From positions 256,001 to 320,000 of IMG/VR virus record IMGVR_UViG_3300025715_000009: 64,000 nt of DNA, one strand, 5' to 3'. Positions 35,579-38,526 of this stretch are shown here, in pieces. This DNA comes from a virus (Duplodnaviria > Caudoviricetes). Made by a program: the position numbers and the translations under genes. Under the pieces are notes generated by a model. It was given only the letters and a program-made list of their open reading frames with translations, searched no databases and was not told where the DNA came from. The number at the start of each line of letters is the position of its first letter. The stretch's first letter is position 1.

Positions 35579-35929
35579 TTATCTTGTATATTTTAATGCT
35601 TTATGTAATAATAAATCATGGTCATATTTATCTTTTATATAAACATGACCATTTTTATATGAGAGAGTATAAAGTTTTTTAAAATATTTGGAAGTAATAC
35701 GAAGAATTATTGTTTCAAGTTTTATTTTTTCAATATTACAAAGTTTCTGTATTTTAACCTTTGTTTTTAACTTATATTTAAAACTTGATTGAATTTCTTT
35801 TTTACTTAATAATATAACACTGCCATCTAAAGTAAAAACATTTCCATTATGGGTATATAATCTATTATTAGCATCTCTTGCAACAATTGCATAAACATAC
35901 CCATTACAAATTGACCTAATCTACTTCAT
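35579..35929 (-). CDS. 116-codon gene with in-frame TAG at codon 3 (readthrough candidate or pseudogene)
   Basis: AAGGAGAGTAGT-ATG AAG TAG ATT AGG... then 113 sense codons to TAA; fills the gap between neighbours exactly. Confidence 0.6.
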
Positions 35930-37259: not shown

Positions 37260-37264
37260 TAGTG

Positions 37265-37335
37265 TGCCCCATTTGGGAATCGAACCCAAGTAAATAGTTT
37301 TAGAGACTACCGCTTTACCATTAAGCAAATGGAGC
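37265..37335 (-). tRNA. tRNA-Sup (CTA), amber suppressor
   Basis: full cloverleaf; GTAGT-CT CTA AA-ACTAT. Confidence 0.85.
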
Positions 37336-37371
37336 AAGTTTGCCAGTTAAACTGGCAAAACTATATATGCT

Positions 37372-38049
37372 TTAGACCTTGAAAGTTTGCCTCATTTCAT
37401 AATTATCCCAACGTTTACCAGCATAATGTTTAATATCTGTCATACTATGTGGAAGAAAACCAGATTCTGAATTATTTTCTTCAAATTGATATTCAGACAT
37501 TAATGGAATTAAAATCCTACCATTATATAATGACATCCATGCAACGCAATCGTCTAAAAGTTCATTGCTTCCTAATTCACAATATCCAAATAAGTCTTGG
37601 ACTTCCAATTTTCCCTCAGATATTTTAGATAAATCAATTGCTTCTAATTTCCATCCTCCACTATCATCTCCCCAAACACATCCAGCAACAATAGCCAAGT
37701 TTGCTATTTTAGAATTTGGGTCTAATTTAGACTCATCCCAATAATCATAATCATTAGGAACACTAAAATCTACTGGACAGAAACCAGAGTTATGTTCAGC
37801 TATTAACTGACAATCTGGCAAAGACATTAAACTCACTGTTTCATAATCATGAGAATATAAAGCATATTCTTTCTCTTTCCATTTAAATGGATAAAATGTA
37901 TTATACATTGAATGATAATTTCTTGTATATTCGCCTATTTTAATTCCATCTTTTAGTATTTCAACTAATAAAGAATTACAATATCCATGACCATTACTTA
38001 TATCTGATGTTTTGGTTGTATAGTTTTTTAGTCTTTTCATTCTAGCCAC
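37372..38049 (-). CDS. hypothetical phage protein
   Basis: GFCPVDF, GCVWGDD motifs. Confidence 0.75.
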   Translation of the reverse strand: MARMKRLKNYTTKTSDISNGHGYCNSLLVEILKDGIKIGEYTRNYHSMYNTFYPFKWKEKEYALYSHDYETVSLMSLPDCQLIAEHNSGFCPVDFSVPNDYDYWDESKLDPNSKIANLAIVAGCVWGDDSGGWKLEAIDLSKISEGKLEVQDLFGYCELGSNELLDDCVAWMSLYNGRILIPLMSEYQFEENNSESGFLPHSMTDIKHYAGKRWDNYEMRQTFKV

Positions 38050-38405
38050 TCCTTTCCATTCTCTTTTAACATGTATTTTACTGAAATATACGCATGTTTT
38101 CTTTCTTCAGTTTTTACTTCATCATCGCTGACTTTTGGTTCAATTTGAGAAATTGTTTTGCCTCTTAGCATTGAATTATAAATATGCTGAATTCTGAAAG
38201 AAGATTTCAAGGATTGGATTGTATTTCTAGTAGAATTGATTCTTTGTAAGATGGGGGAAATTGTAAAATGATATTTTTCTGGTTGTGCATAACACGTATT
38301 TCGTGTATATACTTCATCTAAAACTAATTTGGATAATTCTCTTTGTGCTTCTTTATGTTGTTGTTTTGTAGATTTGATAAGATTTGCAATTTCATTATTT
38401 TCCAT
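38037..38405 (-). CDS. hypothetical phage protein (HIYxSMLRGK..QIE)
   Basis: ORF with SD GGAG. Confidence 0.75.
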   Translation of the reverse strand: MENNEIANLIKSTKQQHKEAQRELSKLVLDEVYTRNTCYAQPEKYHFTISPILQRINSTRNTIQSLKSSFRIQHIYNSMLRGKTISQIEPKVSDDEVKTEERKHAYISVKYMLKENGKEWLE

Positions 38406-38455
38406 AATTTATCTCCTATAAGTTTAATAATAAGGTGGGAATTAAACTTTAAGAG

Positions 38456-38482
38456 TTATGGTGGTTTTAAAATCTATGACAT
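38456..38482 (-). promoter_or_regulatory. leader minigene MS(TAG)ILKPP-stop
   Basis: AAGGAGAGAGT-ATG TCA TAG ATT TTA AAA CCA CCA TAA. Confidence 0.5.
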
Positions 38483-38526
38483 ACTCTCTCCTTTTATATA
38501 TAAATATGCTTTTAATTTTGAAAAAT

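What the first reader, a model, noticed from the sequence alone, without database searches (positions are those of the whole stretch)
38406..38510. Leader minigene MS-amber-ILKPP-stop upstream of the genes leading to the suppressor tRNA
After a GCATAT motif comes AAGGAGAGAGT-ATG TCA TAG ATT TTA AAA CCA CCA TAA, then a hairpin (AAGTTTAAT/ATTAAACTT) just before the SD of the gene at 38405. The context AAGGAGAG..GT-ATG-NNN-TAG-ATT nearly matches the amber gene at 35929. Pro-Pro-stop is an established termination-stalling context. Inference: a sensor of UAG readthrough or RF1 activity, where readthrough moves the ribosome onto PP-stop beside the hairpin and alters downstream expression.
Basis: partly seen in the sequence, partly recalled or inferred. 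Interest (0 to 1): 0.72.

Follow-up and report, generated by a model that had tools for sequence, protein, structure and literature searches.

The report
Stop-readthrough sensor beside phage suppressor tRNA
A giant sludge phage that uses the normal genetic code has a nine-codon leader gene with a UAG stop at codon 3; the next gene's ribosome-binding site probably opens only when the phage's own UAG-reading tRNA reads through that stop, and about 25 distant phages keep the same design next to the same kind of tRNA.

Summary
On the minus strand there is a phage promoter motif, a strong SD, ATG TCA TAG ATT TTA AAA CCA CCA TAA, a hairpin, then the SD and ATG of a 122-aa gene.

It is not chance:
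- All 10 homologues of the 122-aa gene that I fetched (31-53% identity) carry the same leader: SD, ATG-NNN-TAG-A, 4-6 open codons, Pro-Pro or Gly-Pro, stop.
- Nine of those 10 have a tRNA(CUA) gene nearby. The tenth contig is too short to tell.
- A blind pattern scan found about 15 more leaders in phage contigs. 13 of 20 metagenome loci had a tRNA(CUA) within 2 kb. 0 of 18 coding chance hits did, and neither did 7 hits in 596 Gb of prokaryote genomes.

The last Pro codon plus the stop pair with the gene's AUG, and the next six bases pair with its SD. A ribosome stopping at UAG sits short of this arm; one that reads through ends on it.

Best reading: an amber-suppression-gated translational attenuator. 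I found no published description. This scan's own notes report the same design on at least seven other phage genomes. No experiment exists, and the function of the regulated protein is unknown.

The parts
38502..38509 (-). Phage promoter-like motif GCATATTT (class GCATAT[AT]T). The inferred transcript start is about 38495.
   Evidence: The motif has 47 intergenic copies. The following ATG lies either exactly 14 nt from the motif's G with no SD (8 cases, leaderless) or 23-29 nt away with an SD (17 cases). The leader ATG is 27 nt away. The motif also sits upstream of the leader in L006, L011, L012 and L017.
38483..38495 (-). 5' UTR with the strong Shine-Dalgarno AAAAGGAGAGAGT of the leader ORF.
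   Evidence: An equivalent AAAGGAGG sits 5-8 nt before the leader ATG in all relatives.
38456..38482 (-). Leader ORF ATG TCA TAG ATT TTA AAA CCA CCA TAA (M-S-amber-I-L-K-P-P-stop). The gate UAG is at 38474-38476, Pro-Pro at 38459-38464 and the terminal UAA at 38456-38458.
   Evidence: The form M-(L/S)-UAG-(I/T)-x(1-5)-(P/G)-P-stop is conserved in 11 homology-found and about 15 pattern-found leaders. All length differences are multiples of 3, and the Pro codons vary at the third position.
38402..38461 (-). RBS-sequestering stem-loop made of three helices. P1: CCAUAA (38461-38456) pairs with UUAUGG (38407-38402). P2: anti-SD CUCUUA (38455-38450) pairs with SD UAGGAG (38418-38413). P3: AAGUUUAAU (38449-38441) pairs with AUUAAACUU (38428-38420). 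The loop is UCCCACCUUAUU.
   Evidence: The MFE is -15.4 kcal/mol. The predicted pairing probability is 1.0 for the SD and 0.99 for the AUG. P1 shows a compensatory change in L011 (CCAUGA/UCAUGG). The window most complementary to the RBS lies at the terminal stop in 12 of 13 leaders. No terminator-like site lies on this strand.
38037..38405 (-). Regulated gene 1: a 122-aa protein of an uncharacterised phage family genetically linked to tRNA(CUA).
   Evidence: 99 homologues were found, with invariant S25, R71, H74, I75, I88 and E89. There is no Pfam, PHROG or PDB-sequence match. The AlphaFold model has pLDDT 93: a long helical hairpin plus a small C-terminal helical part. Only generic coiled-coil structural matches came back.
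37372..38040 (-). Regulated gene 2: a 222-aa protein whose ATG overlaps the TGA of gene 1 (ATGA), so it is probably translationally coupled.
   Evidence: There are 310 homologues and no Pfam match. The model is all-beta and propeller-like, pLDDT 88. A homologue sits in the same position in L019.
37336..37371 (-). The tRNA's own GCATATAT promoter motif, placed right after the stop of gene 2, followed by a small hairpin (GCCAGTTTAACTGGC) that abuts the tRNA.
   Evidence: The same layout (stop codon, GCATAYWT, covarying hairpin, tRNA) occurs in most of the nine relatives examined; three spacers (L017, L019, L027) keep the hairpin but lack a clear motif.
37264..37335 (-). tRNA with anticodon CUA (amber suppressor), the presumed input of the sensor.
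   Evidence: ARAGORN. Homologous tRNA(CUA) genes lie next to the leader/gene module in L006-L008, L010-L015, L017-L021, L025 and L027, and in 13 metagenome loci.
35579..35929 (-). Second predicted target of the suppressor: a 116-codon gene that starts SD-ATG AAG TAG ATT, the same start context as the leader.
   Evidence: The frame has no alternative start in its first 86 codons.

Best explanation
This is an amber-suppression-gated translational attenuator.

A phage promoter makes an mRNA that starts about 13 nt before a well-placed SD and ATG. Ribosomes start on the leader and meet UAG at codon 3.

OFF state: release factor 1 wins and the ribosome leaves after two codons. Its front edge (about +12 nt from the A-site codon) stays short of the helix, which begins 15 nt after the U of UAG. 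That helix locks up the SD and AUG of the 122-aa gene, so the gene stays silent.

ON state: the phage's own tRNA(CUA) decodes the UAG. The ribosome runs five more codons and arrives at Pro-Pro-UAA, a context known to slow peptide-bond formation and termination. In that position it covers or unwinds the last Pro codon, the stop and the anti-SD just behind it, which together form the 5' arm of the helix. The SD and AUG are freed. A second ribosome can then start the 122-aa gene, and through the ATGA overlap the 222-aa gene as well.

The module therefore reports how well UAG is being read as sense, and it ties a conserved tRNA(CUA)-linked protein to that signal.

Shown: the sequence anatomy, its conservation, the predicted pairing, the geometry, and the linkage to tRNA(CUA).
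Inferred: initiation at the leader ATG, decoding of its UAG by this tRNA, the pause at Pro-Pro-stop, the direction of regulation (ON on readthrough), and any feedback of the protein on suppression.
For: 1. Conservation found through protein homology, with no bias toward the leader.
   - All 10 fetched contexts of homologues at 31-53% identity carry SD-ATG-NNN-TAG-A, then 4-6 open codons, then (P/G)-P-stop, a helix, an SD and an ATG.
   - The leader peptides are MS*ILKPP, MS*IRKPP, ML*IFINGP, ML*TLPP, ML*IAKPP, ML*ITNRPP, ML*INTRPP, ML*ISRAPP and ML*ITKPP.
   - All length differences are multiples of 3. Pro codons vary at the third position (CCA, CCC, CCG). The stop is TAA or TGA.
2. Linkage to the suppressor tRNA.
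   - A tRNA(CUA) lies within 33-50 nt of the gene, or of the short operon, in 9 of those 10 contexts. The tenth contig ends too early to tell.
3. Blind pattern scans.
   - IMG/VR gave 3 distinct hits. Two are real leaders with a tRNA(CUA) nearby.
   - Metagenomes gave 20 intergenic hits, 13 with a tRNA(CUA), against 18 coding chance hits with none.
   - 596 Gb of prokaryote genomes gave 7 hits, all inside ORFs and none with a tRNA(CUA).
4. Structure.
   - In the window the SD and AUG are predicted paired with probability 1.0 and 0.99. Only 6% of 237 SD-bearing genes of this phage reach 0.9 and 0.8.
   - P1 has a compensatory change in L011.
   - The stretch most complementary to the gene's RBS lies within -5 to +7 nt of the terminal stop in 12 of 13 leaders, and within -12 to +7 nt in 13 of 14 further leaders.
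5. Constrained folding.
   - In the window, accessibility of SD plus AUG is 0.00 for naked RNA, 0.00 with a ribosome at UAG, and 0.52 with a ribosome at the terminal stop.
   - All 27 leaders show ON at least equal to OFF (mean 0.34 rising to 0.58).
6. Promoter geometry.
   - The leader ATG sits 27 nt from the promoter motif. That is the normal first-gene position for this promoter class.
7. TAG is otherwise an ordinary stop in this phage.
   - 78 genes end in TAG, and coding density is 90% in code 11.
8. Published support for the parts.
   - C-terminal Pro-Pro interferes with termination in every context tested, and the mRNA boundary of the paused ribosome is at +12 (PMC3834316).
   - Engineered leader peptides with an inserted UAG already work as suppression-dependent switches (PMC6412442).
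Against: - There is no experimental or expression evidence for initiation at the leader ATG, for readthrough or for stalling.
- The fold's z-score against shuffles is weak (-1.2 to -1.5).
- 6% of ordinary genes in this phage show equally strong predicted RBS pairing.
- In the distant, pattern-found leaders the predicted ON/OFF contrast is modest. Only 9 of 27 exceed 0.3.
- RNAalifold recovers only P1 and P3, because the anti-SD helix slides in register between lineages.
- Pro-Pro conservation could be an RNA effect. CCNCC resembles an anti-SD, and in several leaders the Pro codons themselves pair with the SD.
- The window's own motif is L-K-P-P, not the strong R-A/G-P-P.
- The later set of leaders was found with a pattern that demanded CCNCCNTAA, so it cannot count as evidence for Pro-Pro.
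- The amino acid carried by the tRNA and the function of the regulated proteins are unknown.
Confidence: 0.68

Rival explanations
1. The device is the same but the sensed variable differs. The leader reports release-factor-1 activity, or the host's general termination state (for example RF1 depletion or inhibition during infection), rather than the phage tRNA itself. The tRNA is then only one contributor.
For: Readthrough at a UAG depends on the ratio of tRNA to RF1, so the anatomy cannot separate the two inputs. The phage encodes no RF-1-domain protein, so RF1 is supplied by the host and could vary.
Against: The tight, order-independent linkage of the leader to a tRNA(CUA) gene across about 25 loci points to the tRNA as the partner. 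Nothing in the locus is known to act on RF1.
Confidence: 0.12
2. UAG is simply the stop of a two-codon minigene. The conserved sequence after it is RNA structure (an anti-SD made of CCNCC plus flanking bases), controlled by something else such as a protein, temperature or a standby ribosome. The open frame and Pro-Pro are by-products.
For: CCNCC resembles an anti-SD and pairs with the SD in several leaders. The loops often carry UCCCACC, a possible binding site. Two-codon ORFs do occur.
Against: The frame between UAG and the terminal stop stays open, and its length changes only in steps of 3 across at least three length classes. The spacers are otherwise highly divergent. The third positions of both Pro codons vary freely, including the position that would have to be U to pair with GGAGG. 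The UAG and the base after it (A) are invariant, and the module always travels with a tRNA(CUA), which this reading does not explain.
Confidence: 0.08
3. Transcriptional control of the tna type. A ribosome paused at Pro-stop after readthrough blocks Rho loading on the G-poor RNA behind the leader, so readthrough prevents premature Rho-dependent termination rather than, or in addition to, opening the RBS.
For: Like TnaC, the leader ends in Pro-stop. The 50 nt after the stop are almost free of G and contain C-runs (UCCCACC). An engineered tna leader with an inserted UAG works this way (PMC6412442). A silent, untranslated gene would invite Rho polarity in any case.
Against: The stretch is short (about 50 nt) and predicted to be base-paired. 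The conserved feature across lineages is complementarity to the SD and AUG, not C-richness. No intrinsic terminator is present.
Confidence: 0.08
4. A bar-like toxic minigene. SD-AUG-NNN-stop causes peptidyl-tRNA drop-off and ties up a host tRNA, as the lambda bar minigenes do.
For: The form SD-ATG-NNN-stop matches. Pth2-type peptidyl-tRNA hydrolase genes are associated with the module in relatives (L017/L018 neighbour; L070 fusion), and the phage has a Pth2 gene elsewhere.
Against: It explains none of the following: the conserved in-frame extension, the Pro-Pro-stop, the RBS-sequestering helix, or the tRNA(CUA) linkage. Codon 2 varies (UCA, UUG, CUG).
Confidence: 0.03

Closest known systems
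Leader-peptide translational attenuation (ErmCL/ermC; SecM/secA)
   Same: A short ORF with its own SD sits upstream. The regulated gene's SD and AUG are locked in a hairpin whose 5' arm lies at the end of the leader. A ribosome held at that spot opens the hairpin, so a second ribosome can initiate. SecM also stalls at a Pro codon near its end.
   Different: The trigger is neither a drug nor a secretion defect. It is whether an in-frame UAG at codon 3 is decoded at all. Without decoding, the ribosome never reaches the stall site. The leader is only 8 sense positions long.
RAPP/RGPP arrest peptides (ApdA, ApdP, ApcA) and C-terminal Pro-Pro-stop stalling (YbeL-PP)
   Same: The leader ends in x-x-Pro-Pro directly before the stop. 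One relative (L017) has exactly R-A-P-P and several have R-P-P or R-S-P-P. Pro-Pro before a stop impairs termination (PMC3834316). RAP-P blocks peptide-bond formation (PMC10951233, PMC12992588).
   Different: The window's own motif is L-K-P-P. The nascent chain is far shorter than in known arrest peptides. The regulated genes are not protein-localisation genes. Stalling is untested.
Engineered UAG-containing leader peptides (unnatural-amino-acid 'transcriptional switch' built on the tna/trp leaders)
   Same: A UAG placed inside a regulatory leader peptide makes downstream expression depend on an amber suppressor tRNA (PMC6412442, section 6 and its Fig. 8 legend).
   Different: That device is man-made and acts on Rho-dependent transcription termination. 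This one is natural, is conserved in many phages, sits beside the suppressor gene itself and appears to act on RBS access.
prfB (RF2) autoregulatory in-frame UGA
   Same: An early in-frame stop codon serves as a gauge of termination efficiency and sets the expression of a translation-related gene.
   Different: prfB escapes by a +1 frameshift inside the gene itself. Here escape is same-frame decoding by a dedicated tRNA in a separate leader, with output through an RNA helix (no frameshift site).
Stop-codon-recoded (code 15) phages with suppressor tRNAs
   Same: A phage-encoded tRNA(CUA) is proposed to time gene expression (bioRxiv 10.1101/2021.08.26.457843).
   Different: This phage keeps TAG as a stop: 78 genes end in it. 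Only the leader and one gene use an in-frame TAG at codon 3. That preprint's text contains none of the words leader, hairpin, sensor or feedback.

Membership tests
Leader-peptide translational attenuators (ermC / secM-secA type) | A short upstream ORF with its own SD and start codon, in the same transcript as the regulated gene | tested here: met
   SD GGAG sits 5 nt before ATG 38482. The promoter motif is 27 nt upstream, the normal first-gene geometry for this promoter class. The arrangement is conserved in all relatives.
Leader-peptide translational attenuators (ermC / secM-secA type) | The regulated gene's SD and/or AUG is sequestered by pairing with sequence in or next to the leader ORF | tested here: met
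   CCAUAA pairs with UUAUGG and CUCUUA with UAGGAG. Pairing probabilities are 1.0 and 0.99. The anti-RBS arm lies at the terminal stop in 12 of 13 leaders, and within -12 to +7 nt in 13 of 14 more.
Leader-peptide translational attenuators (ermC / secM-secA type) | A signal-dependent ribosome stall in the leader that opens the hairpin | not testable with these tools
   Inferred only, from Pro-Pro-stop and from the constrained-folding model (accessibility 0.00 rising to 0.52). It needs toeprinting or reporters.
RAPP/RGPP arrest peptides | A C-terminal core of Arg-(Ala/Gly)-Pro-Pro | tested here: not met
   The window has Leu-Lys-Pro-Pro. Relatives: RAPP in L017; RPP in L014, L016, L053 and L065; RSPP in L020 and L060; KAPP in L027 and L051; NGP in L006 and L007.
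RAPP/RGPP arrest peptides | Encoded upstream of protein-localisation (Sec/YidC) genes and monitoring secretion | tested here: not met
   The downstream genes belong to an uncharacterised tRNA(CUA)-linked family and a beta-propeller-like protein. The leader has no signal peptide.
C-terminal Pro-Pro-stop termination stalling (YbeL-PP type) | Pro-Pro immediately before the stop codon | tested here: met
   CCA CCA TAA at 38464-38456. Among the 11 homology-found leaders, 9 have Pro-Pro-stop and 2 have Gly-Pro-stop. The stalling itself is untested.
prfB-type autoregulatory recoding | A +1 frameshift site with an internal SD at the in-frame stop | tested here: not met
   The continuation is in the zero frame in all 27 leaders. 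The only SD nearby is the initiation SD; there is no separate frameshift-stimulating SD.
Lambda bar-type minigenes | A two-codon ORF (SD-AUG-NNN-stop) that acts through peptidyl-tRNA drop-off | tested here: inconclusive
   The form is present. The conserved in-frame extension, the helix and the tRNA linkage are not features of bar. The drop-off phenotype cannot be tested here.
Genetic code 15 (TAG = sense) phage | In-frame TAG in many genes; poor gene calls under code 11 | tested here: not met
   Code 11 gives 630 ORF-genes at 90% coding density, 78 of them ending in TAG. Only two start-context TAGs exist in the genome.
tna-type Rho antitermination leader | A rut site next to the leader stop that is masked by the stalled ribosome | tested here: inconclusive
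   The region after the stop is G-poor with C-runs, but it is short and predicted to be paired. Rho dependence cannot be tested here.

The most novel reading that the evidence does not exclude
Standard-code phages that carry an 'orphan' amber suppressor tRNA also carry a dedicated riboregulator that measures that tRNA's decoding activity in real time. An early UAG in a Pro-Pro-ended leader does the measuring, and its output drives a conserved, still unknown protein family that sits beside the tRNA gene. Together they would form a feedback or commitment circuit for partial stop-codon reassignment. This would be a natural genetic-code-state sensor, made of ribosome, leader and RNA helix, with no published precedent.
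Probability: 0.6. Interest if true: 0.85.

Novelty: new variant of a known kind. Interest (0 to 1): 0.8.

Why it matters
Many phages with the standard code carry suppressor tRNAs whose targets are unknown. One genome announcement states this explicitly (PMC9022506, abstract listed).

- This module gives such a tRNA a concrete, conserved target and a plausible control logic.
- It links two fields that have been studied apart: stop-codon recoding in phages and ribosome-arrest leader peptides.
- It names a new protein family (about 120 aa, invariant R71/H74/E89) that is likely to act on suppression, termination or peptidyl-tRNA turnover.
- It makes a long-standing idea directly testable with simple reporters, namely that phages use stop-codon readthrough as a timing signal.
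- It also offers a compact natural part for amber-dependent gene switches.

Tried and rejected
- **Known phage records:** BLASTN of 4 kb around the site against 50,697 phage records found nothing.
- **Loci searches by protein:** The search for related loci found nothing with the single protein in IMG/VR or with a six-sequence alignment in JGI metagenomes.
- **RNA families:** Rfam gave only sub-threshold noise in the leader.
- **RNAalifold:** On a MAFFT alignment of the whole leader it predicted no pairs. On the trimmed region it recovered P1 and P3 but not the sliding anti-SD helix. I therefore used per-sequence folds and a sliding-window duplex test instead.
- **Intrinsic terminator/attenuator:** No terminator-like site lies on this strand.
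- **Fossil 3' end of a lost gene:** In sister contig L003 an upstream ORF runs into the leader's ATG TCA TAG. I rejected this as the general explanation, because the leader is kept behind unrelated upstream genes and behind promoters.
- **Function of the 122-aa protein:** Pfam, PHROGs, PDB sequence search, Foldseek, VIA-align and the ESM Atlas gave only generic helical-hairpin matches.
- **Function of the 222-aa protein:** Only weak beta-propeller matches; it is not Pth2.
- **Opal (TGA) version of the leader:** No convincing case among the IMG/VR hits.
- **Back-up stops after TAG-ending genes:** No enrichment.
- **Homologues of the 116-aa amber gene:** None in the fetched loci.
Full report
**Setting**

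Genes in this region run on the minus strand, and the window holds 39 tRNA genes, including one with anticodon CUA at 37264-37335.

In the standard code the genome gives 630 ORF-genes at 90% coding density. Of these, 348 end in TAA, 204 in TGA and 78 in TAG. TAG is therefore a normal stop in this phage, and the phage is not recoded.

**The observation**

On the minus strand:
- GCATATTT at 38509-38502, followed by ATATAT.
- AAAAGGAGAGAGT.
- ATG (38482) TCA TAG (38476-38474) ATT TTA AAA CCA CCA TAA (38458-38456).
- CTCTTA, then the hairpin AAGTTTAAT / 12-nt loop / ATTAAACTT.
- A, then TAGGAG, ATAAATT and ATG (38405), which starts a 122-aa ORF.

The start of the gene at 35929 (GGAGAGTAGT ATG AAG TAG ATT, followed by 113 open codons) is indeed very similar. 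The strict pattern GGAG-N4-10-ATG-NNN-TAG occurs four times in the genome. These two are the only copies in a start-site context.

**Promoter context**

GCATAT[AT]T is a promoter-like motif of this phage. It is among the most enriched 8-mers in intergenic DNA and has 47 intergenic copies.

The next ATG lies at one of two distances from the motif's G:
- exactly 14 nt, with no SD (8 cases, which implies leaderless mRNAs and a start site about 14 nt from the G);
- 23-29 nt, with an SD (17 cases).

The leader's ATG is 27 nt from the motif, so it sits where the first gene of such a transcript normally starts. The tRNA(CUA) has its own copy of the motif at 37370. This promoter role is inferred from position only.

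**Structure**

Folding shows that the hairpin is the tip of a longer helix:
- CCAUAA (the last Pro codon plus UAA) pairs with UUAUGG (the gene's start codon).
- CUCUUA, directly after the stop, pairs with UAGGAG (the gene's SD).

The MFE is -15.4 kcal/mol. The predicted pairing probability is 1.0 for the SD and 0.99 for the AUG. Only 6% of 237 SD-bearing genes of this phage reach 0.9 and 0.8. On its own this is suggestive at best, since the z-score against shuffles is only -1.2. There is no terminator-like site on this strand and no Rfam match.

**Conservation found through the protein**

The 122-aa protein has no Pfam or PHROG match. A profile search of 1.8 billion representative proteins found 99 relatives.

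I fetched DNA around ten of them, at 31-53% identity: L006, L007, L008, L011, L012, L014, L016, L017 and L019, plus the sister-strain contig L003. Every one has the same leader: a strong SD, ATG, one codon (TTG, TCA or CTG), TAG, A, 4-6 open codons, then Pro-Pro or Gly-Pro, a stop (TAA or TGA), a helix, an SD and an ATG.

The leader peptides are MS*ILKPP, MS*IRKPP, ML*IFINGP (twice, with different codons), ML*TLPP, ML*IAKPP, ML*ITNRPP, ML*INTRPP, ML*ISRAPP and ML*ITKPP.

Three points argue that this frame is read:
- The spacers are highly diverged but contain no stops.
- Their lengths (12, 15 and 18 nt) differ only by whole codons.
- The Pro codons vary at the third position (CCA, CCC, CCG).

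In L011 the stop is TGA and the base before the gene's ATG is C instead of U. Pairing is kept (CCAUGA/UCAUGG), which is a compensatory change.

**Linkage to the suppressor tRNA**

Nine of the ten contexts have a tRNA(CUA) gene 33-50 nt after the gene, or after one or two extra genes. The tenth contig (L016) ends too soon to tell. The tRNAs are homologous to one another and to the window's tRNA.

**Blind test**

I scanned public collections for GGAG-N3-11-ATGTTGTAGAT-N6-18-CCNCCNTAA.
- **IMG/VR:** three distinct hits. Two are intergenic leaders with a tRNA(CUA) nearby, about 125 nt upstream in one case and just after the downstream gene in the other. One is a GC-rich coding chance match with no such tRNA.
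- **JGI/ENA metagenomes:** 38 loci. 18 are coding chance matches, mostly one Ruminococcaceae gene, and none has a tRNA(CUA). 20 are intergenic, AT-rich and leader-like, and 13 of those have a tRNA(CUA) on the same strand within 0.1-1.9 kb. Most of the other seven sit on short contigs or near a contig end.
- **596 Gb of prokaryote genomes:** 7 hits, all inside long ORFs, none with a tRNA(CUA).

The leader and the suppressor gene therefore travel together whatever their order, and the module looks phage-specific in the collections I searched.

The genes behind these new leaders mostly belong to the same family. Some are detected by HMM and others only at motif level, around the (I/V)-E-P segment. 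One of them (L070) is fused to a Pth2-like peptidyl-tRNA hydrolase domain, with PF01981 E = 6e-4, below Pfam's own cut-off. L017/L018 have a Pth2 gene two genes beyond the tRNA. The window's phage has a Pth2 gene elsewhere and no RF-1-domain protein.

**Geometry**

I slid a 9-nt window along each leader and scored its duplex with the gene's RBS.
- In 12 of 13 leaders the best window lies within -5 to +7 nt of the terminal stop of the readthrough frame.
- In 13 of 14 further leaders it lies within -12 to +7 nt. The one exception disappears if its likely true start codon is used.

That stretch is what a ribosome with the terminal stop in its A site covers. The published 3' boundary of a ribosome paused at Pro-Pro-stop is +12 (PMC3834316). 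The same stretch starts 15 nt (window) to about 24 nt after the U of the gate UAG in the homology-found set, and at about +12 or +13 in the tightest pattern-found leaders. It is therefore beyond, or just at, the front edge of a ribosome sitting at UAG.

I also folded each leader with a 28-nt footprint forced single-stranded.
- In the window, accessibility of SD plus AUG is 0.00 for naked RNA, 0.00 with the footprint at UAG and 0.52 with it at the terminal stop.
- All 27 leaders show ON at least equal to OFF (mean 0.34 rising to 0.58).
- Only 9 of 27 show a contrast above 0.3. The prediction is strong for the window's clade and modest for distant ones.

**Mechanism proposed**

The reading is an amber-suppression-gated translational attenuator.
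- **Without decoding of UAG:** the ribosome is released after two codons and the gene's RBS stays locked.
- **With decoding by the phage tRNA(CUA):** the ribosome reaches Pro-Pro-stop and probably dwells there. It melts or covers the 5' arm of the helix and exposes the SD and AUG.

Pro-Pro before a stop impairs termination in all contexts tested (PMC3834316). [quoted passage not shown]

The 122-aa gene would then be translated. The 222-aa gene would follow through the ATGA overlap at 38037-38040.

The invariant A after UAG fits what I know of context effects that favour suppression over release. That point rests on my own knowledge, plus the general statement in PMC6412442 that the base after UAG affects RF1 recognition.

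**Status of each step**
- **Shown:** anatomy, conservation, linkage, predicted pairing and geometry.
- **Inferred:** initiation at the leader ATG, decoding of the UAG, pausing at Pro-Pro-stop, and the ON direction of regulation.
- **Unknown:** what the proteins do, and therefore whether the loop is negative (homeostasis of suppression) or positive (commitment).

The AlphaFold model of the 122-aa protein is confident (pLDDT 93). It shows a long helical hairpin plus a small helical C-terminal part, and it matches only generic coiled coils. The 222-aa protein is all-beta and propeller-like.

**Rivals**

- **Sensing RF1 rather than the tRNA** is a variant of the same device. The anatomy cannot exclude it, but the tRNA linkage favours the tRNA.
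- **An RNA-only element with an incidental two-codon ORF** is disfavoured by the codon-wise indels, the stop-free diverged spacers, the third-position variation in the Pro codons and the tRNA linkage. One caveat stands: CCNCC is itself anti-SD-like, and in several leaders it pairs with the SD.
- **A tna-like Rho mechanism** is possible as an added layer.
- **A bar-like toxic minigene** explains little of what is conserved.
- **A fossil of an upstream gene's 3' end.** In sister contig L003 the leader's TAG is also the stop of an upstream ORF. The leader is kept behind promoters and behind unrelated genes, so this is not the general explanation.

**Comparison with what is known**

It works like ermC or secM-secA attenuation, with a Pro-Pro or RAPP-like end. 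The gate, a stop codon that must be decoded by a dedicated tRNA, is new for a natural system as far as I could find. Four full-text searches and a reading of the main phage-recoding preprint found no description. The nearest thing is an engineered UAG-bearing tna/trp leader (PMC6412442).

It is not a member of the RAPP family in the strict sense, because the window's motif is LKPP and the downstream genes are unrelated to secretion. It is not a prfB-type frameshift, and the phage is not code 15.

**Earlier notes of this scan**

After I had reached this reading, a word search of the scan's own notes showed that the same design had been reported on at least seven other phage genomes (e1-5743051, e1-5319523, e1-5651225, e1-5525146, e1-5748114, e1-5666339, e1-5728789). 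Those are unchecked AI notes and not independent evidence. They did give me the RAPP and Pth2 leads, which I then tested in part here.

**Verdict**

It is a new variant of a known regulatory principle, with no experimental support yet.

Noticed in passing
window 37336-37371 (-); L006:1343-1389, L007:2882-2929, L008:2882-2918, L011:1187-1228, L012:1937-1973, L014:2716-2754, L017:1921-1953, L019:2613-2646: Every tRNA(CUA) is preceded by a small perfect hairpin that abuts the tRNA. Its sequence differs in every lineage, so it covaries. In most lineages a GCATAYWT promoter motif placed right after the upstream stop codon precedes the hairpin. This could be a 5' leader hairpin of the pre-tRNA or an operator at the start site. 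Its function is unknown.
   Followed up: partly
whole genome; e.g. window 32674, 64844, 51895 (-): GCATAT[AT]T looks like a phage promoter class with two fixed geometries. In one the ATG lies exactly 14 nt from the G with no SD (leaderless mRNAs, 8 cases). In the other the ATG lies 23-29 nt away with an SD (17 cases). The motif also precedes tRNAs and other RNA genes. A second enriched intergenic motif is TAAGATAAT.
   Followed up: partly
window 38429-38440 (-); loops in L014, L017, L060; upstream hairpin in L008: The motif UCCCACC recurs in the apical loop of the leader helix in several lineages: UUCCCACCUUA, UUCCCACCUAA, AUCCCACCAAU and AUCCCACCAAA. Degenerate forms occur in L006, L007 and L016. 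In L008 the motif sits in a separate hairpin upstream of the leader. It resembles the 3' end of 16S rRNA with a deletion. Its role is unexplained.
   Followed up: no
L070:6362-7177 (-); L017:2595-2999; genome 67842-68222 (-): In one relative the tRNA(CUA)-linked protein family is fused to a Pth2-like peptidyl-tRNA hydrolase domain (E = 6e-4). In another, a Pth2 gene lies two genes beyond the tRNA(CUA). The window's phage has a clear Pth2 gene far from this locus. This hints that the family deals with peptidyl-tRNA or termination.
   Followed up: partly
L003:1-68: In one sister-strain contig the promoter and the 60-aa upstream gene are replaced by a different ORF (...ECSEHGSEKWEVLKKQGESMS) that runs through the leader's SD and ATG and ends at the leader's TAG. 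L019 has a homologue of that ORF upstream of its leader, ending just before the SD. The leader there differs by TTA changed to AGA (ILKPP becomes IRKPP).
   Followed up: partly
L076:4623-4700: A look-alike leader with TGA at codon 3 (ATG ACT TGA ATA...) lies upstream of a gene that begins MSTELKIKLK, like the genes behind the L020-type amber leaders. It has no in-frame Pro-Pro-stop, and no suppressor tRNA lies in the 14.9-kb locus. It may be an opal variant or a decayed copy.
   Followed up: no
window 37372-38040 (-): The 222-aa second gene belongs to a large uncharacterised family (310 hits) with invariant C80, C91, C124 and W126-G-D-D129. Its predicted fold is all-beta and propeller-like. 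Only weak DDB1/WD40-type structural matches came back.
   Followed up: partly
L038, upstream of 9610: One metagenome locus carries two tRNA(CUA) genes in tandem, 447 and 365 nt upstream of its leader. The gene behind that leader is a 103-aa protein outside the usual family.
   Followed up: no
whole genome: Only 78 genes end in TAG against 204 that end in TGA (ratio 0.38). The trinucleotides occur 9828 and 16037 times (ratio 0.61). TAG stops are thus mildly under-used. There is no excess of nearby back-up stops after TAG.
   Followed up: yes
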